Positions 1,356 to 24,295 of a stretch of DNA of 31,048 nucleotides are shown here, piece by piece (position 1 is the first letter of the stretch; every line of letters begins with the position of its first letter). Origin of the DNA: a virus; UHGV virus genome UHGV-0096129. One strand, written 5' to 3'. The position numbers and the translations under genes are program-made. The notes beneath the pieces were generated by a model. That model did not search any database, had not been told where the DNA came from, and was given only the letters and a program-made list of their open reading frames with translations.

Positions 1356-1627
1356 GTATTCGTATTGAAATTGGCGAACGTTATGTCGTTACCAGTGACA
1401 GCTTTCAGTTTATTCTCCACGAGAAAAAGAGAGCGGAAAGCGGTAAAAACGCCGGTCAGGAATGGCTGGCGGTGGTTGGTTATTATCCGAAATTAAGCCA
1501 GCTCGTTTCCGGCCTGATGCATCACGATATTCTGACCGGAAGCGCAAAGTCTTTTGCTGATTTAAACGCGCAGGTTGAGCAACTCAGCAGGCGTTGTTCA
1601 GAGGCTTTTGGCTCATATGGCCGTTAA
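1352..1627 (+). CDS. Small early protein, P2 orf83-position hypothetical
   Basis: 91-aa ORF coupled to the upstream gene (overlap 1352-1355). Its 3' end overlaps the gpA start at 1617. Confidence 0.6.
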   Translation: MSIRIEIGERYVVTSDSFQFILHEKKRAESGKNAGQEWLAVVGYYPKLSQLVSGLMHHDILTGSAKSFADLNAQVEQLSRRCSEAFGSYGR

Positions 1628-3902
1628 AGCCTCCGGGCGTTTTGTCCCTCCGTCAGCATTTGCTGCAGGCACCGGTAAGGCGTTTACCGGTGCTTATGCA
1701 TGGAACGCGCCACGCGAGGCCGTCGGGCGCGAAAGACCCCTTACACGTGACGAGATGCGTCAGGTGCAAGGTGTTTTATCCACGATTAACCGCCTGCCTT
1801 ACTTTTTGCGCTCGCTGTTTACTTCACGCTATGACTACATCCGGCGCAATAAAAGCCCGGTGCACGGGTTTTATTTCCTCACATCCACTTTTCAGCGTCG
1901 TTTATGGCCGCGCATTGAGCGTGTGAATCAGCGCCATGAAATGAACACCGACGCATCGTTACTGTTTCTGGCAGAGCGTGACCACTATGCGCGCCTGCCG
2001 GGAATGAATGACAAGGAGCTGAAAAAGTTTGCCGCCCGTATCTCATCGCAGCTTTTCATGATGTATGAGGAACTCAGCGATGCCTGGGTGGATGCGCATG
2101 GCGAAAAAGAATCACTGTTTACGGATGAGGCTCAGGCTCACCTGTATGGTCATGTTGCTGGCGCTGCACGTGCTTTCAATATTTCCCCGCTCTACTGGAA
2201 AAAATACCGTAAAGGACAGATAACCACGAGGCAGGCATATTCTGCCATTGCCCGCCTGTTTAACGATGAGTGGTGGACTCATCAGCTTAAAGGCCAGCGT
2301 ATGCGCTGGCATGAGGCGTTACTGATTGCTGTCGGGGAGGTCAATAAAGACCGTTCTCCTTATGCCAGTAAACATGCCATTCGTGATGTGCGTGCGCGCC
2401 GCCAGGCAAATCTGGAATTTCTTAAATCGTGTGACCTTGAAAACAGGGAAACCGGCGAGCGCATCGACCTTATCAGTAAGGTGATGGGCAGTATTTCTAA
2501 TCCTGAAATTCGCCGGATGGAGCTGATGAACACCATTGCCGGTATTGAACGTTACGCCGCCGCAGAGGGTGATGTGGGGATGTTTATCACGCTGACCGCG
2601 CCGTCAAAGTATCACCCGACACGTCAGGTCGGAAAAGGCGAAAGTAAAACCGTTCAGCTTAATCACGGCTGGAACGATGAGGCATTTAATCCAAAGGATG
2701 CGCAGCGTTATCTCTGCCGTATCTGGAGCCTGATGCGTACGGCATTCAAGGATAATGATTTACAGGTCTACGGTTTGCGTGTCGTCGAGCCACACCACGA
2801 CGGAACGCCGCACTGGCATATGATGCTTTTTTGTAATCCACGCCAGCGTAACCAGATTATCGAAATCATGCGTCGCTATGCGCTCAAAGAGGATGGCGAC
2901 GAAAGAGGAGCCGCGCGAAACCGTTTTCAGGCAAAGCACCTTAACCGGGGCGGTGCTGCGGGATATATCGCGAAATACATTTCAAAAAATATCGACGGCT
3001 ATGCACTGGATGGTCAGCTCGATAACGATACCGGTAAGCCGCTTAAAGATACTGCCGCGGCTGTTACCGCATGGGCGTCAACGTGGCGCATCCCGCAATT
3101 TAAAACGGTTGGACTGCCGACAATGGGGGCTTACCGTGAACTACGCAAATTGCCTCGCGGCGTCAGTATTGCTGATGAGTTTGACGAACGCGTCGAGGCT
3201 GCTCGCGCTGCCGCAGACAGTGGTGATTTTGCGTTGTATATCAGCGCGCAGGGTGGGGCAAATGTCCCGCGCGATTGTCAGACTGTCAGGGTTGCCCGTA
3301 GCCCGTCGGATGACGTTAACGAGTACGAGGAAGAAGTCGAGAGAGTGGTCGGCATTTACGCGCCGCATCTCGGCGCGCGTCATATTCATATCACCAGAAC
3401 GACGGACTGGCGCATTGTGCCGAAAGTTCCGCTCGTTGAGCCTTTGACTTTAAAAAGCGGCATCGCCGCGCCTCGGAGTCCTGTCAATAACTGTGGAAAG
3501 CTCACCGGTGGTGATACTTCGTTACCGGCTCCCACACCTTCTGAGCACGCCGCAGCAGTGCTTAATCTGGTTGATGACGGTGTTATTGAATGGAATGAAC
3601 CGGAGGTCGTGAGGGCGCTCAGGGGAGCATTAAAACACGGCCTGAAAACACCAAATCGTCAACAAAGAAACGGAAGCCCGTTAAAAACACATGAAATTGC
3701 ACCGTCGGCCAGACTGACCCGGTCGGAACGAATGCAAATCACCCGTATCCGCGTTGACCTTGCTCAGAACGGTATCAGGCCTCAGCGATGGGAGCTTGAG
3801 GCGCTGGCGCGTGGAGCGACCGTAAATTATGACGGGAAAAAATTCACGTATCCGGTCGCTGATGAGTGGCCGGGATTCTCAACAGTAATGGAGTGGACAT
3901 AA
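1617..3902 (+). CDS. A: Replication initiation endonuclease gpA (rolling-circle HUH nickase)
   Basis: From the ATG at 1617 the product is 761 aa, the recalled P2 A length. It has the HUH-type metal motif PHWHMMLF and the catalytic tyrosine motif GYIAKYISKN. In P2 the replication origin lies inside the 3' part of this gene; I cannot pin down the nick site here. Confidence 0.95.
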   Translation: MAVKASGRFVPPSAFAAGTGKAFTGAYAWNAPREAVGRERPLTRDEMRQVQGVLSTINRLPYFLRSLFTSRYDYIRRNKSPVHGFYFLTSTFQRRLWPRIERVNQRHEMNTDASLLFLAERDHYARLPGMNDKELKKFAARISSQLFMMYEELSDAWVDAHGEKESLFTDEAQAHLYGHVAGAARAFNISPLYWKKYRKGQITTRQAYSAIARLFNDEWWTHQLKGQRMRWHEALLIAVGEVNKDRSPYASKHAIRDVRARRQANLEFLKSCDLENRETGERIDLISKVMGSISNPEIRRMELMNTIAGIERYAAAEGDVGMFITLTAPSKYHPTRQVGKGESKTVQLNHGWNDEAFNPKDAQRYLCRIWSLMRTAFKDNDLQVYGLRVVEPHHDGTPHWHMMLFCNPRQRNQIIEIMRRYALKEDGDERGAARNRFQAKHLNRGGAAGYIAKYISKNIDGYALDGQLDNDTGKPLKDTAAAVTAWASTWRIPQFKTVGLPTMGAYRELRKLPRGVSIADEFDERVEAARAAADSGDFALYISAQGGANVPRDCQTVRVARSPSDDVNEYEEEVERVVGIYAPHLGARHIHITRTTDWRIVPKVPLVEPLTLKSGIAAPRSPVNNCGKLTGGDTSLPAPTPSEHAAAVLNLVDDGVIEWNEPEVVRALRGALKHGLKTPNRQQRNGSPLKTHEIAPSARLTRSERMQITRIRVDLAQNGIRPQRWELEALARGATVNYDGKKFTYPVADEWPGFSTVMEWT

Positions 3903-4354
3903 TGGCAAAAATTCACGAGGTAAAGCTGCACGCAAAATATTTTGACCTTGTGCTGGAAGGAAAGAAACGCGCAGAGTTTCGGAAAAATGACCGTAATTAT
4001 GAGCGCGGGGACACGTTGATTTTGCATGAATGGGTGCAGGGTGTGTATACGGGGCGAAAGGTTGAAGCCCAGATAACAGATGTTACTGACCTGTCAGACT
4101 GGCTGGAAGATTATGTCTTGCTAAGTATTGAGCGGCTTAATACAGGCGCATGTGAGATTGTGAACTGGAAAGAACTTAGTGAGCGTGGTCTGGTATTCAG
4201 AATTAATCATGAAATTATGCATCAGCTCGGCCTTGCTGTTATGTATGAACCAGAGACGGGGATGTCTGGCGGGGCAATGGTTGCCACGGATGGAGCATGG
4301 AACTATTCAGATGAACAGATTGAGCGTGCACAGCAAAACGGGTGGCTTGGATAA
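3902..4354 (+). CDS. ASCH/DUF3850-like domain protein with a C-terminal extension
   Basis: The start ATG at 3902 overlaps the gpA stop (TAATG). The N-terminus KIHEVKLHAKYFDLVLEGKKRAEFRKNDRNYERGDTLILHEW looks like the DUF3850/ASCH beta-barrel signature seen in phage early regions. The C-terminal ~75 aa are unassigned. Confidence 0.65.
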   Translation: MAKIHEVKLHAKYFDLVLEGKKRAEFRKNDRNYERGDTLILHEWVQGVYTGRKVEAQITDVTDLSDWLEDYVLLSIERLNTGACEIVNWKELSERGLVFRINHEIMHQLGLAVMYEPETGMSGGAMVATDGAWNYSDEQIERAQQNGWLG

Positions 4355-4560: not shown

Positions 4561-4789
4561 AGAACGCCGCCAGTCGTGAAACTTGTTTTCAGGGCTGGCG
4601 GGGTTGAACAACGAGCGAAGCGAGGCGTTAGTTGACAGTAATATTTTTACTGCGTTGGTGCTGTTTTTTGACGGTTGAAAGGAGTTAGCTCGGAGAGCTA
4701 AAGCTAACAACTTACAAATATTCAAAAGTAAGCTTCCTGTTGCTAACATAAGGTCGATTTTTTATGTGGATGATGCAAAAAGGATAGCT

Positions 4790-5521
4790 ATGGATACTGT
4801 AATCGCTTTTCTATCACTCGCTTTTTTCGTTGCTTTTTTCATCGGATTAATCAAACCATCACTGGTGCGGATGCCAAACCGTAAAAGTGCAAGTGCGGTT
4901 TATCTCGGAGGAGGTTTTGTATTGAGCATAATTGGTTCAATACTCTATCCAACAGAAAAAAGCCAGCCAGTTGCTAAAACTGAAACATCAACCGTTGCAG
5001 AACACCAAGTCCAAAAAAAATTCGAATATGGTGGAAAAACACTCAAGGAATATCGGAACGAGCCAAAGAAAACTCGACACGATATTGTGAATAGTTACAT
5101 TGATTTTAAGGAAGTGCCAGTCACCGCATCAGATGCATTTTATGCCTGCATGAGTGAATATACTTTTACCAAAGATGATGAGTTGAAACTCGGTGATGTT
5201 CTTGGATGGTGCTTTAATGATTATGAAAAAGATCCGAAATCACTAAACAATAAAATCAACCTTGATACATTTCAGAGTAATTTTAGCGGTTGGGATGGTT
5301 CTTATCGACCATTGGAAAAGCTAATTAAAGAGAATATGAACGATGATTCATCTTATAAACATGTGTCAACAGTGTATCATTTGGTTTTGAATAAAGATCC
5401 GCACGCCATTGTGAAAACAACATTTCGCGGAACTAATGCTTATGGCGGAGTGGTGAAACAGACCGTTGCGGCGCGCGTCAATGTTCGAACTGGTGAGGTA
5501 ACTTCAATAATTGATAACTAA
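4790..5521 (+). CDS. Two-TM membrane protein with a ~190-aa predicted periplasmic C-terminal domain; function unknown
   Basis: ORF 4766-5521. I prefer the ATG at 4790 (AGGA at 4781-4784, 5-nt spacer), giving 243 aa. There are two hydrophobic helices (VIAFLSLAFFVAFFIGLI and AVYLGGGFVLSIIGSILY). They are separated by a basic loop (KPSLVRMPNRKSAS), which under the positive-inside rule places the C-terminal domain outside the cytoplasm. Confidence 0.7.
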   Translation: MDTVIAFLSLAFFVAFFIGLIKPSLVRMPNRKSASAVYLGGGFVLSIIGSILYPTEKSQPVAKTETSTVAEHQVQKKFEYGGKTLKEYRNEPKKTRHDIVNSYIDFKEVPVTASDAFYACMSEYTFTKDDELKLGDVLGWCFNDYEKDPKSLNNKINLDTFQSNFSGWDGSYRPLEKLIKENMNDDSSYKHVSTVYHLVLNKDPHAIVKTTFRGTNAYGGVVKQTVAARVNVRTGEVTSIIDN

Positions 5522-5545
5522 AGTGAAGGGCTAGGCCATGTTATG

Positions 5546-5574
5546 TTTAAGCCATAATATGGCTTTTTTATGAT
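5546..5574 (+). promoter_or_regulatory. Candidate sigma70 promoter for the 198-aa gene
   Basis: TTTAAG (5546-5551), a 17-nt spacer, then TATGAT (5569-5574), about 30 nt upstream of the ATG at 5604. AT-rich context makes chance matches likely. Confidence 0.25.
5550..5569 (+). terminator. Weak rho-independent terminator candidate after the membrane-protein gene
   Basis: AGCCATAATATGGCT (5-7 bp stem) is followed directly by a T6 run ending at 5569, 29 nt after the stop codon. The stem is short and AT-rich. Confidence 0.35.
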
Positions 5575-5603: not shown

Positions 5604-6200
5604 ATGAATTCAAAAAAAAGGAATAAATACCTCAAGTTAATGTTTGAGTGTAGAAAAAGAATTGAAACGCTACATGATTTAGCATCCGGACATACAGGAG
5701 GACTTTATCTTCAAGTTTTAATAGAAATAGAAGCGTTACAACTCAGAAAGTTATTGGAGCTTATCGCATTTTCATCGTTAATTTCATATGAGGAATCCTA
5801 TAAGACTGTTGCGAAGAGTATTGATGGTGTATGGAAAGCCAAGCGTATTATAAGTGAGTTAGAAAAAATAAATCCAAATTTTTACCCGTTACCTGTATCA
5901 TCATTTACCAATGACGGGTGGAAGAAATTGAAAGGTGGATATTTAACAAAAAAACAATTTATTGCACTGTATGATGAATGTTCAACTCATATTCATGTTA
6001 GAAACCCATACAGGATAAGCGAAAACTCGCTGGCTTTTCATAGAAAAGTACCTTCATACTTAGAGAGAATTGAATGTTTATTATCTAAACATATTGTTTC
6101 ACTTGTAGATGATAGGGAGTTTCTTTTTGTAGAGGTACCTCATTTTGAAGATTCGGCTACCCCTCTAAGAATTAGATGTTTAATTAAAAATAGAGGGTAA
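5604..6200 (+). CDS. Hypothetical cytoplasmic protein, 198 aa, no recognised domain
   Basis: Strong RBS (AAGGAG at 5589-5594, 9-nt spacer). AT-rich codon usage like its neighbours. Predicted mostly helical, with no TM segment or signal peptide. Confidence 0.75.
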   Translation: MNSKKRNKYLKLMFECRKRIETLHDLASGHTGGLYLQVLIEIEALQLRKLLELIAFSSLISYEESYKTVAKSIDGVWKAKRIISELEKINPNFYPLPVSSFTNDGWKKLKGGYLTKKQFIALYDECSTHIHVRNPYRISENSLAFHRKVPSYLERIECLLSKHIVSLVDDREFLFVEVPHFEDSATPLRIRCLIKNRG

Positions 6201-6616: not shown

Positions 6617-7972
6617 TTAAATGTCAGACATATATTTCTTTGCGATTTCAGAAGCTGTCTTTTCTATACTTGGATAAACAGTGCTCTCAGTAATGTTCAA
6701 TTGTGCAAGTTCTTTCAAGATTATTTTTTTATTAACTATGTCAACTCTGTCAAGAGGAAAGTCTTCTGTTGTCTCTGGGAGTACTGCCTCGTGACCAAAT
6801 AATAGAAATGCGCCAGACTGTGATTGAATGCGTTCATTATTTATTCTGGCGCGGATGAATAGTATTTTCCGAAGATCATGCAGGTCTATATTTTTTTTAA
6901 AATATGGTTTTTCAGCTTGAATATGATCTAAAAGTTTATTGAGTAGTTCTTTTGCGTGAGATTTGTCGTTTTCAATTAAGCTTTTTGATATAGTGCTTAA
7001 GATATTGTGTGGCATAAATGCCAGATTGGCTATACAGCTAACAGTATCAGAGTCAAAATATTTGATATTTTTTCTTTCTGTAGGAAACGAGATGACTTGT
7101 CCGGTGTCTTCAGGATCTTCACAGCATGCAAAATATAAAGCAATTAGCGGGTTGGATGTAATATCTAGCAATCTTGTAGGTAAACCATAATGCTGCATTC
7201 TAACTAATTTATCGATCGTAAAATTATCAGATATAAATTCATTAGGCCTTGCTGACAGAATTTCACGAACCATAGATGATTCTGAATCAAGGTGCTTATG
7301 AGTCCCGTTATCATGTTTCCGGAAAAGAGATGGGATAAGTTCATATTTATTTCGTGAATGTCCTCTATAAAAAATTTCAGAGTTTGAATTGTTGGATTTT
7401 TCTATAAAACTGATATATTCCTTTAAGCTCTTTATTTTTCTTATTTTTGATGTTCTTTTGATGTTTCCAATTTTGGAGGTGTTAGAGAGAATTTTTTCAG
7501 TTGTATCGTTTTTGGTTTTATTTAGCTCAAGTTTTAGCAGTGTTTCTCTTAATTTTTTATCTTTAACTGCCCAGTGGGTTCTGCTAAGACCATAAGCACC
7601 TAAGTCTAATATTTCTTTATATTGTTTTATTTCGGGGTTCTTGATTTCGCCAAAATCATGAACGATTTCAAAGTGATAACAAACATCATCATTGTCTATG
7701 TGTAAGTTGCCGACTTTTCCAAGTCTTACTCTTAAATATCTATTTTTGTCACCGTCTTTATCGTATATTTCAGTCATGAAAAGAACAGGTAGCTTAGATA
7801 GAGCGTCTAAAGTTATAGGGCTTACTGGTGTTAATTTTTTATAAAGTAAGGATGGTGTACCTTCTAGCATTCGGGAAAGAGAGAAACTATCTTCCCCATT
7901 TTTAATATTAGGATCCATAGATGGCCATCTATCAAACACAGAGGGCTCACCCCCGATAATGAGATTAAACAT
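6617..7972 (-). CDS. FRG-domain protein with an uncharacterised ~185-aa N-terminal domain
   Basis: 451 aa, with GGAG 7 nt upstream of the ATG. FRG-family signatures are present: FYRGHSRNKYELIPSLFR (res 201-218), MQHYGLPTRLLDITSNPLIALYFAC (res 259-283) and NERIQSQSGAFLLF (res 379-392). A Lys/Arg-rich linker (res ~165-185) precedes the domain. Confidence 0.85.
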   Translation of the reverse strand: MFNLIIGGEPSVFDRWPSMDPNIKNGEDSFSLSRMLEGTPSLLYKKLTPVSPITLDALSKLPVLFMTEIYDKDGDKNRYLRVRLGKVGNLHIDNDDVCYHFEIVHDFGEIKNPEIKQYKEILDLGAYGLSRTHWAVKDKKLRETLLKLELNKTKNDTTEKILSNTSKIGNIKRTSKIRKIKSLKEYISFIEKSNNSNSEIFYRGHSRNKYELIPSLFRKHDNGTHKHLDSESSMVREILSARPNEFISDNFTIDKLVRMQHYGLPTRLLDITSNPLIALYFACCEDPEDTGQVISFPTERKNIKYFDSDTVSCIANLAFMPHNILSTISKSLIENDKSHAKELLNKLLDHIQAEKPYFKKNIDLHDLRKILFIRARINNERIQSQSGAFLLFGHEAVLPETTEDFPLDRVDIVNKKIILKELAQLNITESTVYPSIEKTASEIAKKYMSDI

Positions 7973-8418: not shown

Positions 8419-9453
8419 TCAGCCGTTGTCAGTGTCCAGTGAGTAGTTTTTAAAGCGGATGACCTCCTGACCGAGCCAGCCGTTTATTTCCCGAATCCTG
8501 TCCTGTAACGGGATAAGCTCATTGCGGACAAAGACCTTTGCCACTTTCTCAATATCGCCCAGCGACCCGACATTCTCCGGCTTACCGCCCATCAACTGAA
8601 AGGGGATGCGGTGTGCGTCCAGCAGGTCAGCGGCGCTGGCTTTTTTGATATTAAAAAAATCGTCCTTCGTTGCCACTTCACTGAGCGGGATAATTTTAAT
8701 ACCGTCGGCTTTTCCCTGTGGGGCGTAGAGAAACAGGTTTTTAAAGTTGTTGCGGCCTTTCGACTTCACCATGTTTTCGCGAAGCATTTCGATATCGTTG
8801 CGATCCTGCACGGCATCGGTGACGTACATGATGTATCCGGCATGTGCGCCATTTTCGTAATACTTGCGGCGGAACAGCGTGGCCGACTCATTCAGCCAGG
8901 CAGAGTTAAGGGCGCTGAGATATTCCGGCAGGCCGTACAGCTCCTGATTAATATCCGGCTCCAGCAGGTGAAATACGGAGCCGGGCGCGAAAGGTGTCGG
9001 CTCGTTGAAGGACGGCACCCACCAGTAAACATCCTCCTCCACGCCACGGCGGGTATATTTTGCCGGTGAGGTTTCCAGTCTGATGACCTTACCGGTGGTG
9101 CTGTAACGCTTTTCCAGAAACGCATTACCGAACACCAGAAAATCCAGCACAAAGCGGCTGAAATCCTGCTGGGAAAGCCACGGGTGCGGGATAAACGTTG
9201 AAGCCAGAATATTACGTTTGACGTAAATCGGTGAGCTGTGATGCACGGCAGCACGCAGACTTTTTGCCAGACCGGTAAAGCTGACCGGCGGCTCATACCA
9301 TCTGCCGTTACTGATGCATTCGACGTAATCCAGAATGTCACGGCGGTCGAGTACCGGCACCGGCTCGCCAAAGGTGAATGCCTCCATTTTCGGGGCGCTG
9401 GCGGTCATTGTTTTTGCCGCAGGTTGCGGTGTTTTCCCTTTTTTCTTGCTCAT
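8419..9453 (-). CDS. Q: Portal protein gpQ
   Basis: 344 aa, the recalled P2 Q length. It is divergent from O and lies next to cos, as in P2, and is coupled to P (shared base 9453). Confidence 0.95.
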   Translation of the reverse strand: MSKKKGKTPQPAAKTMTASAPKMEAFTFGEPVPVLDRRDILDYVECISNGRWYEPPVSFTGLAKSLRAAVHHSSPIYVKRNILASTFIPHPWLSQQDFSRFVLDFLVFGNAFLEKRYSTTGKVIRLETSPAKYTRRGVEEDVYWWVPSFNEPTPFAPGSVFHLLEPDINQELYGLPEYLSALNSAWLNESATLFRRKYYENGAHAGYIMYVTDAVQDRNDIEMLRENMVKSKGRNNFKNLFLYAPQGKADGIKIIPLSEVATKDDFFNIKKASAADLLDAHRIPFQLMGGKPENVGSLGDIEKVAKVFVRNELIPLQDRIREINGWLGQEVIRFKNYSLDTDNG

Positions 9454-11225
9454 CAGTAAAACTCCAGAATGGTGGATGTCAGCGGGGTGCTGATACCGGC
9501 GGTGAGTGGCTCATTTAACAGGGCGTGCATGGTCGCCCAGGCGAGGTCGGCGTGGCTGGCTTCCTCGCTGCGGCTGGCCTCATAGGTGGCGCTGCGTCCG
9601 CTGCTGGTCATGGTCTTGCGGATAGCCATAAACGAGCTGGTGATGTCGGTGGCGCTGACGTCATATTCCAGACAGCCACGGCGGATAACGTCTTTTGCCT
9701 TGAGCACCATTGCGGTTTTCATTTCCGGCGTGTAGCGGATATCGCGCGCGGCGGGATAGAACGAGCGCACGAGCTGGAACACGCCGACACCGAGGCCGGT
9801 GGCATCAATCCCGATGTATTCAACGTTATATTTTTCGGTGAGTTTGCGGATGGATTCCGCCTGGGTGGCAAAGTCCATGCCTTTCCACTGGTGACGCTCA
9901 AGTATTCTGAATTTGCCACCGGCCACCACCGGCGGTGCCAGCACCACGCATCCGGCGCTGTCGCCACGGTGTGACGGGTCGTAACCAATCCATACCGGGC
10001 GGGAGCCGAACGGATTGGCGGCAAACGGCGCATAGTCTTCCCATTCTTCCAGCGTGTCGACCATGCAGCGTTGCAGCTCCTCGAACGGGAACACCGACGC
10101 CTTGTCGTCAACAAATTCACACATGAACAGGTTTTTAAAATCGTCGGCGCTGTTTTCACGTTTGAGCTGCTCAATGTCGAACAGCGTGCAGCCACCTTTC
10201 AGGGCGTCCTCAATGGTGACAATCTGCCGCCACTGGCCGTCCGCACAGAGAAGCCCACCGGCAAGGGCGTTATGACTGACGTCGATTTCCACGCGTTCGG
10301 CGGCGCTGGCGCGTCCCCGGTTGAACAGTTCACCTGACCAGAACGGGTAGGCGTCGTGCGCCAGCGTGGACGGGGTGGAGAAATAGGTCGAGCGCAGGTG
10401 ACTCTGTGAGGCCATACCTGATGCCACCTTACGCAGTACCTGAAAATTCGGGATCCAGAAAATCTCGTCGACGTACAGGTCGCCGTTATGGCTCTGTGCG
10501 GTGTTGGAGTTGGTGCCGAGAAAAATCAGTTTTGCGCCGTTATTGCCCAGGACAATCGGGTCACCGGTCAGGTCAATGTCAACCAGACGGGCAAAGGCGA
10601 TGATGTATTCACGGAACACATACGCCTGCGTTTTACTGGCCGACAGAAAAATCTGGTTATGACCGGTTTTCAGGGCGCGCAGCAGCGCCTCGCGGGAAAA
10701 ATAAAACGTCGCGCCAATCTGGCGGGATTTCAGGATATCGCGGATGCGGTGCTCAAGCCCGGCGCGATACCAGTGCAACTGATAGTCGAAAGACTGCTCA
10801 AAGAAAATCTGCTCCAGCTTTTCGATGGCCTCGTCACTGAAAAAATTCTTTTTCGGTTTGCGCCGCCCGCCTTTGTTGCGGTTAGCGACGTTCGGATTAA
10901 GGTCTGCCTCGTTGCCGGTCTGGCTGTAACGGTTGACCCGTGCCAGTCGTTCAATCTGGCGTCCGAGCAGGTCAATTTCCTTGAAGTCACCGCCGGTTTT
11001 CTGCGGTTTGATGATGAGCTGGGTCAGCCGCGCTTCCAGACTCATTTCGACACGGCTGATGGGGGCAACGCTGTCCCAGCCGTCGCGCTGTTTCCAGCTC
11101 TGCACCGTCGGGCGTTTCATCTGCAACATGGCGGCAATCTGCGGCACGGAAAACCCCTGCCAGTACAGCAGCGCCGCCTGACGACGCGGGTCGTGTAAAA
11201 GAGTGGTGTCTGTGGTGATGGTCAT
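9453..11225 (-). CDS. P: Terminase large subunit gpP
   Basis: From the ATG at 11225 (GAGG 6 nt upstream) the product is 590 aa, the recalled P2 P length. It has an N-terminal HTH-like region and an ATPase/nuclease-sized body. Confidence 0.95.
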   Translation of the reverse strand: MTITTDTTLLHDPRRQAALLYWQGFSVPQIAAMLQMKRPTVQSWKQRDGWDSVAPISRVEMSLEARLTQLIIKPQKTGGDFKEIDLLGRQIERLARVNRYSQTGNEADLNPNVANRNKGGRRKPKKNFFSDEAIEKLEQIFFEQSFDYQLHWYRAGLEHRIRDILKSRQIGATFYFSREALLRALKTGHNQIFLSASKTQAYVFREYIIAFARLVDIDLTGDPIVLGNNGAKLIFLGTNSNTAQSHNGDLYVDEIFWIPNFQVLRKVASGMASQSHLRSTYFSTPSTLAHDAYPFWSGELFNRGRASAAERVEIDVSHNALAGGLLCADGQWRQIVTIEDALKGGCTLFDIEQLKRENSADDFKNLFMCEFVDDKASVFPFEELQRCMVDTLEEWEDYAPFAANPFGSRPVWIGYDPSHRGDSAGCVVLAPPVVAGGKFRILERHQWKGMDFATQAESIRKLTEKYNVEYIGIDATGLGVGVFQLVRSFYPAARDIRYTPEMKTAMVLKAKDVIRRGCLEYDVSATDITSSFMAIRKTMTSSGRSATYEASRSEEASHADLAWATMHALLNEPLTAGISTPLTSTILEFY

Positions 11226-11398
11226 GAATACCTCGCCGTGATGAATACACGGCAAGGCTACTTAGTCGCGCCCCGCGATTCGCTAAGGTGCTGTTGTGTC
11301 AGTGATAAGCCATCCGGGACTGATGGCGGAGGATGCGCATCGTCGGGAAACTGATGCCGACATGTGACTCCTCTAATCACTATTCAGGACTCCTGACA

Positions 11399-23515: not shown

Positions 23516-24295
23516 TTAAAATATCCAACTGATAAATCCACCTGAATACTTTTCACTAATTTTGATTGCATAAAGATCATGAAGAGTTATAAATAAATCA
23601 TTATCTTCTTTGAAAATTAACTCCTCATATTCTGCCATTATCAAATTATGCTGTGTTGTTAGTTTAGATATGTTATCTATTTCACTGGCAAGCATGGATT
23701 TGTTTACATTGGTGTGTGGATCCATGGCAATATATTTCCGCATCAATGGAATTAGTTGATCAGGGTCTATATTTTTTGCATTTTCCTTTGCTTTTTTTTG
23801 TCTTTCTGAATAGATGGAGTTAATTGTGTCAGTGTGTTTTTTCGCCAGTCTCTTAAACTCTGGATATGAACCAGTAACTAATGCAAGCTCTTCGTACTTA
23901 AGGAATAAATCGATATTGCATTTTTTTACCGTCATTTCAAGATCTTCAACTCTTTTTTTTAACTCTTCATTTGTTTTAATAAGAGACATCGGGAGAACTT
24001 CATAATGTTGTCCTAATTCTGAATCAGGGCTCATTGCCATATGTACTATTTCATTATACATGAGCTGATAAGAAGCAGATAACTCTCCATACTTTAGAAA
24101 TAGTTCATTATGTGAAGATGAACAAGAACTTTGTAATTTCATCATTGGCCTAAAGTAATCCTTTATAAACTCCTCCTGAAGATCTTGGTCTTTTTTGTAG
24201 CTCTCTAGGATTCCAGCAAAAAGAAATGACCCTAAAGATATAGAGATTATGGATATTAGCAATTGACTAAGGAATGATTGTGTTTCATTACTCAT
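23516..24295 (-). CDS. Membrane-anchored helical protein, 259 aa, unknown function (cargo at the P2 Z/fun position)
   Basis: AGGA 8 nt upstream of the ATG. One N-terminal TM helix (FLSQLLISIISISLGSFLFAGIL), then a Lys/Glu-rich helical region. Very AT-rich (about 25% G+C in line 23581-23640 by hand count). It is antisense to the flanking late operons. Confidence 0.75.
   Translation of the reverse strand: MSNETQSFLSQLLISIISISLGSFLFAGILESYKKDQDLQEEFIKDYFRPMMKLQSSCSSSHNELFLKYGELSASYQLMYNEIVHMAMSPDSELGQHYEVLPMSLIKTNEELKKRVEDLEMTVKKCNIDLFLKYEELALVTGSYPEFKRLAKKHTDTINSIYSERQKKAKENAKNIDPDQLIPLMRKYIAMDPHTNVNKSMLASEIDNISKLTTQHNLIMAEYEELIFKEDNDLFITLHDLYAIKISEKYSGGFISWIF

What the first reader, a model, noticed from the sequence alone, without database searches (positions are those of the whole stretch)
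4790..5521. Periplasm-facing 2-TM protein: candidate superinfection-exclusion factor or membrane partner of the adjacent orphan
The predicted topology puts a ~190-aa soluble domain in the periplasm, anchored by a helical hairpin. Prophage-encoded envelope proteins of this kind typically block DNA injection or mask receptors, as with Sie, Imm and Cor-type functions. I do not recognise the C-terminal module (FSGWDGSYRPLEKLIKENMNDDSSYKHVST...GTNAYGGVVKQTVAARVNVRTGEV) as a named family. A weak hairpin with a T6 run follows the gene, so it may be expressed on its own.
Basis: inference. Interest (0 to 1): 0.5.

Follow-up and report, generated by a model that had tools for sequence, protein, structure and literature searches.

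The report
Phage 186 Orf97-type exclusion protein
This gene in a P2-like prophage encodes a membrane-anchored protein facing the periplasm; it is a close relative of coliphage 186 Orf97, which the 186 genome record says blocks 186 infection when expressed from a plasmid, so it is a known but mechanistically unexplored phage-exclusion gene.

Summary
The ORF at 4790-5521 (+) is real. It encodes 243 aa, is under strong purifying selection (dN/dS 0.05-0.11) and has more than 150 full-length homologues across Enterobacterales.

- a strong positive-inside charge bias;
- a Cys120/Cys141 pair that always co-occurs;
- homologues in which the same domain follows a lipoprotein signal peptide;
- homologues in which it follows a cytoplasmic zinc ribbon plus one TM helix.

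The module does have a name. It is 79% identical over its full length to Orf97 of coliphage 186. The GenBank record for 186 notes that orf97 'expression from plasmid blocks 186 infection'. It is also the untested, unnamed single-gene '2 TM' system #12 of the P2 hotspot catalogue of Rousset et al. 2022.

So the exclusion idea is supported by orthology. The alternative idea, a partner of the adjacent orphan, is not supported:
- the 198-aa neighbour accompanies the gene in only 7 of 84 E. coli genomes;
- downstream genes differ and are unrelated to each other;
- in Kluyvera and Erwinia the gene sits alone.

The mechanism is unknown. The periplasmic part combines an HdeA/Tai4-like helical subdomain with a cystatin/NTF2-like domain. 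That domain has no Pfam family although relatives of the profile, mostly matching it, number at least 2,884 protein clusters.

Verdict: new member of a known kind, of moderate interest.

The parts
4566..4631 (+). Conserved structured 66-nt element of the P2/186 backbone. It marks the left edge of the variable region. It lies upstream of the orf97 homologue here and downstream of orf97 in phage 186.
   Evidence: RNA fold -35.2 kcal/mol, z = -4.25. Found once in the window. The same element follows orf97 in phage 186, K. oxytoca and Kluyvera, and two copies flank IS3 plus orf97 in E. coli bR_120. P2 homology ends near 4634. No Rfam family matches.
4705..4789 (+). Leader homologous to the t95a-orf97 intergenic region of phage 186, with the Shine-Dalgarno AAGGA at 4780-4784. 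The t95a hairpin of 186 is eroded here.
   Evidence: Alignment with 186, Klebsiella and Erwinia. The 186 t95a folds at -21.7 kcal/mol (z = -3.7), against -7.5 kcal/mol (z = -0.16) for window 4722-4775.
4790..5521 (+). Coding sequence of the Orf97 homologue, 243 aa including the stop codon.
   Evidence: 79% identity to 186 Orf97. dN/dS 0.05-0.11.
4793..4852 (+). TM helix 1 (residues 2-21), with the N-terminus facing outward.
   Evidence: Kyte-Doolittle 2.67. Helix 2-21 in the model. The N-tail is acidic.
4853..4894 (+). Conserved basic cytoplasmic loop (residues 22-35, KPSLVRMPNRKSAS).
   Evidence: Mean 4.6 K/R and 0.03 D/E, with 72% mean identity across the family. G19, L20, P23, V26, M28 and R31 are invariant.
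4895..4948 (+). TM helix 2 (residues 36-53).
   Evidence: Kyte-Doolittle 1.81 at residues 34-52. Helix 31-52 in the model.
4949..5020 (+). Variable, disordered periplasmic tether (residues 54-77).
   Evidence: pLDDT below 50 at residues 53-72. 30% mean identity and length variation across the family.
5021..5254 (+). Helical periplasmic subdomain (residues 78-155) with the Cys120 (5147-5149) and Cys141 (5210-5212) pair. The fold is HdeA/HdeB/Tai4/Rap1a-like.
5255..5518 (+). C-terminal alpha plus four-strand beta domain (residues 156-243) with the motif F-S-x-W-D-G-S-(H/Y)...K...N-D-x-x-S-Y-x-H..T...N. The fold is cystatin/NTF2-like. This is the most conserved part of the protein.
5533..5571 (+). 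Intrinsic-terminator-like hairpin (13-bp stem) followed by a T-run. Homology with other orf97 loci ends at the stop codon just upstream.
   Evidence: Alignment A3 shows similarity between loci ending at the stop codon.

Best explanation
The gene is an orthologue of coliphage 186 orf97, carried here as a self-contained single-gene cassette at the left edge of the gpA-to-portal cargo hotspot of a P2-type prophage.

**The protein.** It inserts in the inner membrane as a helical hairpin with the N-terminus out, a basic loop in the cytoplasm and the C-terminus out. A flexible tether of about 24 residues then presents a two-part periplasmic domain: a disulfide-stapled helical subdomain followed by a cystatin/NTF2-like domain.

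**Proposed function.** Most likely it is a superinfection-exclusion factor. When produced, it blocks infection by 186/P2-type phages. Because it is tethered to the inner membrane and cannot reach the outer face of the outer membrane, the block probably acts after adsorption, while the tail tip and DNA cross the periplasm and inner membrane.

**Shown or predicted here:**
- gene reality;
- orthology to Orf97;
- topology, by prediction and by homologue architecture;
- fold;
- autonomy from neighbouring genes.

**Taken from the 186 record:** plasmid expression of Orf97 blocks 186 infection.

**Inferred:**
- that this allele does the same;
- the stage of the block;
- that the periplasmic domain is the active part.
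For: **Orthology.** Identity to 186 Orf97 is 79% over 243/243 residues with no gaps. The 186 GenBank U32222 and RefSeq note reads 'expression from plasmid blocks 186 infection'.

**Topology.** Charge bias. A perfectly co-occurring Cys pair. The same soluble domain directly follows lipoprotein signal peptides or a zinc ribbon plus one TM helix in relatives. An anchor swap occurs at the same prophage position in Photorhabdus.

**Autonomy.** The gene is alone in the hotspot in Kluyvera and Erwinia tracheiphila. The downstream genes seen in different loci differ; the three E. coli ones compared show no BLASTP similarity. It has its own terminator, and homology stops at the stop codon. Rousset et al. 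list it as a single-gene system, #12, with 210 occurrences.

**Prophage cargo character.**
- It sits at the gpA-portal hotspot in Escherichia, Klebsiella, Serratia, Erwinia, Citrobacter, Enterobacter and Rahnella.
- It sits next to ogr in Photorhabdus and Xenorhabdus.
- It follows gpD in Vibrio phage VHML.
- It lies beside the repressor in Vibrio prophages.
- The C-terminal domain lies inside the repressor-integrase gene cluster (same strand) of Aeromonas phage LPM4.

**Fold.** The matched folds are typical of periplasmic binders and inhibitors.
Against: - The exclusion phenotype is known to me only from a one-line database note for the 79%-identical orthologue. The primary paper (Brumby et al. 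1996, Virology 219:105) is not in the library.
- The phenotype came from plasmid expression, so it may be an over-expression effect.
- No promoter was identified in the window, and no LexA box or tum gene precedes the gene here. When it is expressed is therefore unknown.
- The protein is under strong purifying selection with no sign of diversification.
- The C-terminal domain is conserved in thousands of clusters, some with no phage gene recognised nearby. That fits binding of a conserved envelope component better than recognition of a fast-evolving phage protein.
- There is no sequence similarity to any characterised Sie, Imm or Cor protein.
Confidence: 0.55

Rival explanations
1. Envelope-protective or immunity-type protein. 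The periplasmic domain would bind or inhibit a periplasm-acting enzyme or toxin (for example a T6SS peptidoglycan amidase effector, a colicin or a lysozyme), or act as a chaperone or binder of a conserved envelope component. Any block of phage infection would then be secondary or an over-expression effect.
For: The helical subdomain's best structural matches are HdeA/HdeB chaperones and the T6SS amidase immunity proteins Rap1a and Tai4, all small disulfide-containing periplasmic proteins. The C-terminal domain has the cystatin/NTF2/PepSY-type fold used by many inhibitors. It is deeply conserved, with near-invariant polar residues across 135 diverse representatives. Selection is strongly purifying. 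Relatives occur as ordinary lipoproteins, for example in Photobacterium and Oxalobacter.
Confidence: 0.15
2. Receptor-level exclusion. The protein would alter LPS or outer-membrane biogenesis from the periplasmic face of the inner membrane, so that 186/P2-type phages, which use the LPS core (from my own knowledge), adsorb poorly.
For: It is a periplasm-facing inner-membrane protein in prophages whose relatives bind LPS. The conserved Ser/Asp/His/Lys/Asn residues in the C-terminal domain could form a small active or binding site. Blocking 'infection' does not say at which stage.
Against: The 88-residue domain matched no Pfam or NCBIfam family, enzymatic or otherwise, and fold matches are to binders and scaffolds. 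Known prophage LPS modifiers, such as the Gtr and Oac types, are polytopic enzymes (from my own knowledge).
Confidence: 0.12
3. One half of a two-gene system with the adjacent 198-aa orphan (5604-6200), acting as its membrane partner or effector.
For: The two genes are co-oriented and 82 nt apart. The pair recurs in 7 E. coli genomes and in Enterobacter chuandaensis, with the 198-aa ORF at 86% identity.
Against: 77 of 84 E. coli genomes with the target lack the 198-aa gene. Downstream genes elsewhere are unrelated or absent. A terminator separates the two genes, and homology between loci breaks exactly at the target's stop codon. Phage 186 Orf97 acts from a plasmid without such a partner.
Confidence: 0.04
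4. Abortive-infection membrane effector that kills or depolarises the infected cell.
For: Transmembrane proteins in P2/P4 hotspots are often proposed as suicide effectors (PMC9122126).
Against: It has only a 2-TM anchor, which in Photorhabdus is replaceable by a zinc ribbon plus one TM helix and in other relatives by a lipid anchor. The conserved, constrained part is the soluble periplasmic domain. No sensor partner is present.
Confidence: 0.05

Closest known systems
Orf97 of coliphage 186 (Eganvirus ev186; GenBank U32222, AAC34191.1 / NP_052294.1)
   Same: Same length (243 aa) and 79% identity without gaps. It has the same 2-TM anchor, conserved loop, Cys pair and C-terminal domain. The roughly 85-nt leader is homologous. 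The record notes that plasmid expression blocks 186 infection.
   Different: In 186 the gene is the second gene of the LexA-repressed SOS operon (p95, tum, partial terminator t95a, orf97, t95b), and it lies before the conserved 66-nt backbone element. Here there is no tum and no LexA box, the t95a hairpin is eroded, and the gene lies after that element inside the cargo hotspot of a P2-type phage, followed by other cargo.
P2-hotspot system #12 ('2 TM', unnamed single gene) in Table S5B of Rousset et al. 2022 (PMC9122126)
   Same: Same protein family, a near-identical E. coli allele, listed as a one-gene system with 210 occurrences. The exact window arrangement (FRG + 3 hypotheticals + DUF3850/ASCH) is listed in Table S5A with WP_053263921.
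   Different: That catalogue gives no function. The sequence does not appear among the cloned and tested systems in Table S2.
Inner-membrane superinfection-exclusion proteins that block DNA entry (T4 Imm, P22 SieA, HK97 gp15; from my own knowledge)
   Same: A small phage-encoded inner-membrane protein that acts alone and stops infection by incoming phage.
   Different: No sequence similarity was detected, because no exclusion-annotated PHROG matched. Those proteins, as far as I know, lack a 190-aa folded periplasmic domain of this type. The stage of the Orf97 block is unknown.
HdeA/HdeB acid chaperones and Tai4/Rap1a T6SS amidase immunity proteins
   Different: Identity is only 6-16%. Those proteins are free soluble dimers, not membrane-tethered and not fused to a cystatin-like domain. 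No functional test was possible.
Cystatin / NTF2-like / PepSY / VirB8-type domains
   Different: The resemblance is at fold level only, at 3-19% identity. The family's own signature (FSxWDGSH...K...NDPxSYxH..T...N) is not covered by any Pfam model or any solved structure.

Membership tests
Phage 186 Orf97 family (phrog_3403) | Full-length sequence homology to 186 Orf97 | tested here: met
   BLASTP 191/243 identical, E = 3e-151, no gaps. phrog_3403 matched 1-243 of 243, E = 1.9e-144.
Phage 186 Orf97 family (phrog_3403) | Location in a P2/186-type (Peduoviridae) prophage downstream of the replication gene A | tested here: met
   gpA at 1575-3902, portal at 8419-9453(-), terminase at 9453-11255(-). 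The same position occurs in 186 and in many genera.
Phage 186 Orf97 family (phrog_3403) | Membership of a LexA-controlled SOS operon with tum | tested here: not met
   No tum/DinI gene lies between gpA and the target. LexA-box-like matches are at chance level and none lies upstream. The t95a hairpin is eroded. This feature belongs to the 186 locus, not to the protein family. Serratia and Rahnella loci also appear to lack tum: in Serratia the gene follows gpA directly, and Rahnella shows the same spacing.
Phage 186 Orf97 family (phrog_3403) | Expression blocks infection by 186-type phage | not testable with these tools
It needs a plating experiment with this allele.
Characterised superinfection-exclusion families (Sie, Imm, Sp, Cor, Llp, Sim) | Sequence homology to a characterised exclusion protein | tested here: not met
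   A PHROGs scan at E<=0.1 returned only four families of unknown function. PADLOC, Pfam and NCBIfam returned none.
Characterised superinfection-exclusion families (Sie, Imm, Sp, Cor, Llp, Sim) | Single phage-encoded envelope protein that is sufficient on its own | tested here: inconclusive
   Genomic autonomy is shown. Sufficiency is reported only for the 186 orthologue.
HdeA/HdeB-like and Tai4/Rap1a-like periplasmic helical proteins | Fold similarity of the helical subdomain | tested here: met
HdeA/HdeB-like and Tai4/Rap1a-like periplasmic helical proteins | Sequence-level homology or shared function (acid chaperone; amidase immunity next to an effector) | tested here: not met
   Identity is 6-16%. 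A profile search of PDB sequences found nothing. No effector genes are adjacent.
Known anti-phage defence systems (PADLOC-DB v2) | Match to a defence-system HMM | tested here: not met
   The target matched 0 families. The neighbouring FRG gene does match PDC-S15.
Extracytoplasmic (periplasmic) domain proteins | Domain is exported: positive-inside topology, conserved disulfide pair, homologues with export signals | tested here: met
   Loop 4.6 K/R against N-tail 0.08. Cys/Cys co-occurs in 70/70. Lipobox-bearing homologues P0127, P0132, P0163, P0172, P0185 and P0193 have the domain starting right after the lipid-modified Cys.

The most novel reading that the evidence does not exclude
The Orf97 C-terminal domain (FSxWDGSH...NDPxSYxH) may define a large, still unnamed family of extracytoplasmic domains. 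Relatives of the Orf97 profile, many matching only this domain, number at least 2,884 clusters at 50% identity, with no Pfam model and no solved structure. The domain would bind a conserved envelope component through a near-invariant polar pocket. Prophages of several types (P2/186-like, VHML-like, lambdoid-like Vibrio prophages, Aeromonas Peduoviridae) would deploy it on interchangeable membrane anchors as a general, mechanistically new way to close the periplasm or inner membrane to incoming phage genomes.
Probability: 0.25. Interest if true: 0.6.

Novelty: new member of a known kind. Interest (0 to 1): 0.4.

Why it matters
Orf97 has been sitting in the phage 186 record with a one-line exclusion phenotype, from a study I attribute to 1996. 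The same protein is among the dozen commonest cargo items of the E. coli P2 hotspot, yet it is absent from defence databases and has never been studied mechanistically.

Linking the two gives a concrete, cheap experiment. It also identifies a widespread, unannotated periplasmic domain whose ligand could reveal which envelope step P2/186-type phages depend on for genome entry.

For genome annotation, it means the many 'hypothetical protein' calls for this family in Enterobacterales prophages could be renamed 'Orf97-like putative superinfection exclusion protein'.

Tried and rejected
**Family and structure searches of the target**
- Pfam, NCBIfam and PADLOC scans gave no hits.
- A Pfam scan of 135 diverse relatives found only N-terminal zinc ribbons and similar, nothing on the conserved domain.
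- PDB sequence searches with two profiles gave nothing significant.
- Foldseek against viral structures returned only uncharacterised phage (lipo)proteins.
- The afdb50 library was unavailable.

**Searches that added nothing**
- A second large homologue search with the broad alignment returned mostly the same close relatives (a dozen further ones, also unnamed), all 'hypothetical protein'.
- A cluster look-up of distant representatives gave no functional names.
- The search for related loci with the broad alignment failed for lack of conserved stretches. The narrower alignment worked.

**The two-gene idea**
- Pairwise BLASTP of three alternative downstream genes showed no similarity.
- Pfam scans of seven of the alternative downstream genes gave one hit, ORC-CDC6-like on one of them; a DUF2971 gene follows in Klebsiella oxytoca.
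- I rejected the idea on that basis and on distribution.

**Regulation**
- I looked for SOS control. LexA-box matches are at chance level (9 found against 9.6 expected) and none is upstream of the gene.
- The promoter scan found nothing above shuffled expectation. By eye, the best candidate upstream of the gene is TTCAAA-17-TAACAT ending about 4748, at 8/12 matches, which I do not count as evidence.
- Rfam gave no match for the structured element.

**Literature**
- Accession numbers are not mentioned in any paper text.
- The primary 186 paper is not held.
- The BTP5 transcriptome paper discusses tum but not orf97 expression.

**Model coordinates**
- I could not measure the Cys-Cys distance because model coordinates are not exposed. 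The disulfide is inferred from co-variation and from both cysteines lying seven residues from the connecting loop of adjacent helices.

Full report
**Setting.** The window is a P2-type (Peduoviridae) prophage. Its genes in this region are:
- the replication endonuclease gpA at 1575-3902 (Pfam Phage_GPA, E = 8e-124);
- an orf91-like DUF3850/ASCH gene at 3899-4354;
- a small 68-aa ORF;
- the finding at 4790-5521;
- a 198-aa ORF at 5604-6200;
- an FRG-domain gene at 6617-7972 on the minus strand (PADLOC candidate PDC-S15);
- the portal (8419-9453, -) and terminase (9453-11255, -) genes.

This gpA-to-portal interval is the cargo hotspot of P2-like phages described by Rousset et al. 2022 (PMC9122126). 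Identical arrangements exist in complete E. coli genomes, where RefSeq calls the same 243-aa ORF 'hypothetical protein'.

**Observation.**
- An AAGGA ribosome-binding site lies 5 nt before ATG 4790, and all homologues begin there.
- The gene is real. The first search found 157 homologues, nearly all about 243 aa, from Escherichia, Klebsiella, Citrobacter, Enterobacter, Serratia, Yersinia, Erwinia, Pectobacterium, Photorhabdus and others.
- Pairwise dN/dS is 0.05-0.11, and lowest (0.03-0.07) in the C-terminal domain.
- A terminator-like hairpin with a 13-bp stem and a T-run follows at 5533-5571.

**Topology.** Two hydrophobic segments (3-21 and 34-52) are the only ones in the protein.
- Across 37 family members, the connecting loop carries on average 4.6 Lys/Arg and almost no acidic residues.
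- The three-residue N-tail is acidic, and the stretch after TM2 is slightly acidic. By the positive-inside rule, this places the loop in the cytoplasm and the C-terminal 190 residues in the periplasm.

Three further lines agree:
- The only two cysteines, C120 and C141, are invariant in the family. In a set of 135 diverse relatives they are either both present (70 sequences) or both absent, never one alone. In the model they sit seven residues from either end of the loop joining two adjacent helices, as expected for a disulfide staple.
- An exhaustive profile search found 2,884 cluster representatives (E<=1e-3). In some of them the whole soluble domain, cysteines included, follows directly after a lipoprotein signal peptide. 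In others it follows a cytoplasmic zinc ribbon and a single TM helix.
- In Photorhabdus, the same prophage position holds either the 2-TM form or a zinc-ribbon/1-TM form of the protein.

**Fold.** AlphaFold gives a confident model of residues 78-243 (pLDDT above 90) after a disordered, poorly conserved tether.
- These are fold-level resemblances only.
- The C-terminal domain is the conserved core of the superfamily. F165, S166, W168, D169, G170, S171, K180, N184/D185, S188, Y189, H191, T194, T210, N216 and G219 are each the majority residue, most of them in over 85% of the 135 representatives and N184 in about 72%.
- No Pfam model matches it in any of those sequences, and no solved structure matches by sequence.

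**Identity.** A translated search of the phage collection showed that the protein is Orf97 of coliphage 186, at 79% identity over all 243 residues with no gaps.
- Both the original GenBank record U32222 and RefSeq NC_001317 annotate orf97 with 'expression from plasmid blocks 186 infection'.
- They place it as the second gene of the LexA-repressed SOS operon: promoter p95, the antirepressor gene tum, a partial terminator t95a, orf97, and terminator t95b.
It is not in the library, so I rely on the record's note.
- Homologues are also annotated as orf97-like in Salmonella prophage BTP5 and in Vibrio phage VHML.
- Independently, Table S5B of Rousset et al. lists a near-identical E. coli allele as hotspot system #12. 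It is a single gene with 210 occurrences, no name and the comment '2 TM'. It is not among the systems they cloned.

**Autonomy.** The '198-aa orphan' hypothesis fails.
- That ORF occurs in 7 of 5,426 complete E. coli genomes, always beside the target, whereas the target occurs in 84.
- Elsewhere the gene is followed by unrelated genes of 260, 220, 310, 272 (DUF2971), 297, 575 aa and so on.
- In Kluyvera cryocrescens and Erwinia tracheiphila it is the only substantial gene (ORFs of at least 70 aa from an ATG; Kluyvera also has an 85-aa antisense ORF) before the portal gene.
- DNA similarity between E. coli loci stops exactly at its stop codon.
- The gene also moves. It lies next to ogr at the other prophage end in Photorhabdus and Xenorhabdus, and after gpD in VHML. 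More distant relatives lie beside the repressor in Vibrio prophages, and the C-terminal domain lies within the repressor-integrase gene cluster (same strand) of Aeromonas phage LPM4.

**Differences from 186.**
- Here there is no tum and no LexA box.
- The roughly 85-nt leader is homologous to that of 186, but its t95a hairpin is eroded (-7.5 against -21.7 kcal/mol).
- A conserved, strongly folding 66-nt backbone element (4566-4631; -35 kcal/mol, z = -4.25) lies upstream of the gene here but immediately downstream of orf97 in 186, Klebsiella and Kluyvera. Two copies bracket IS3 plus orf97 in one E. coli strain.
- The cassette has therefore crossed from the 186-type backbone into the P2-type cargo region.
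- No convincing promoter was found, so the timing of expression in this prophage is open.

**Mechanism.**
- What is shown or strongly predicted: an inner-membrane tether, a periplasmic disulfide-containing two-part domain, independence from neighbours, and orthology to a protein recorded as blocking 186 infection.
- What I infer: this allele also excludes 186/P2-type phages. Because the protein is held at the inner membrane on a tether of about 24 residues, I infer that it acts after adsorption, during passage of the tail tip and DNA through the periplasm and inner membrane.
- The strong conservation and low dN/dS of the C-terminal domain argue that it binds something conserved. That could be a host envelope component or a conserved part of the injection machinery, rather than a rapidly evolving phage surface.
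- This is also the main support for the rival view that its primary role is envelope protection or immunity.
- Receptor (LPS) modification, an abortive-infection effector and a two-gene system are less likely, for the reasons given under the rival explanations.

**Verdict.** Interest is moderate. The open questions are the mechanism and the ligand of a very widespread, unannotated periplasmic domain.

Noticed in passing
window 4566-4631 (+); also L042 (phage 186) about 1447-1512, L014 5762-5789, L017 6756-6783, L004 3459-3486 and 5762-5789: A conserved 66-nt element folds into a strong hairpin (-35 kcal/mol, z = -4.25). It sits upstream of the orf97 homologue in P2-type loci but directly downstream of orf97 in 186-type loci, and it brackets IS3 plus orf97 in E. 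coli bR_120. P2 homology to the window ends at its 3' edge. It looks like the border or recombination joint of the cargo region. No Rfam family matches.
   Followed up: partly
window 4722-4775 (+) compared with L042 640-690: The partial terminator t95a that precedes orf97 in phage 186 (-21.7 kcal/mol) has decayed to a non-significant structure here (-7.5 kcal/mol, z = -0.16). This suggests different control of the gene in this prophage.
   Followed up: partly
window 5604-6200 (+): A 198-aa ORF (phrog_13799, no Pfam, NCBIfam or PADLOC hit) occurs in only 7 of 5,426 complete E. coli genomes, always next to the Orf97 homologue. An 86% homologue occurs at the same position in Enterobacter chuandaensis (L020). 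Its function is unknown.
   Followed up: partly
window 6617-7972 (-): A 451-aa FRG-domain protein (Pfam FRG, E = 9e-23) matches the PADLOC defence candidate PDC-S15 (E = 6e-98). It is probably the actual defence cargo of this hotspot.
   Followed up: no
window 23516-24295 (-): A 259-aa ORF with no Pfam match lies on the opposite strand among the tail genes. This is the position of the second cargo site of P2-like phages (the Z/fun locus in P2, from my own knowledge).
   Followed up: no
window 3899-4354 (+): The orf91-like gene combines DUF3850/ASCH (E = 1e-17) with DUF7415 (E = 2e-14). It is a conserved P2 accessory gene of unknown role.
   Followed up: no
L041 (Aeromonas phage vB_AsaM_LPM4) 2703-3740: A 345-aa protein whose C-terminus carries the Orf97 C-terminal domain (48% identity over 81 residues) lies between the repressor and integrase genes, on the same strand as both.
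   Followed up: no
Protein family level (representatives P0121-P0268): The N-terminal 2-TM hairpin with the motif G-L-I/F-K-P followed by a basic loop recurs as an anchor module. Weak partial matches of residues 1-74 to two PHROGs of unknown function (E = 0.002-0.009) hint that it may accompany other C-terminal domains. The periplasmic domain in turn occurs on at least four anchor types: the 2-TM hairpin, a zinc ribbon plus one TM, an about 70-residue N-terminal segment of unknown kind plus one TM, and a lipobox.
   Followed up: partly
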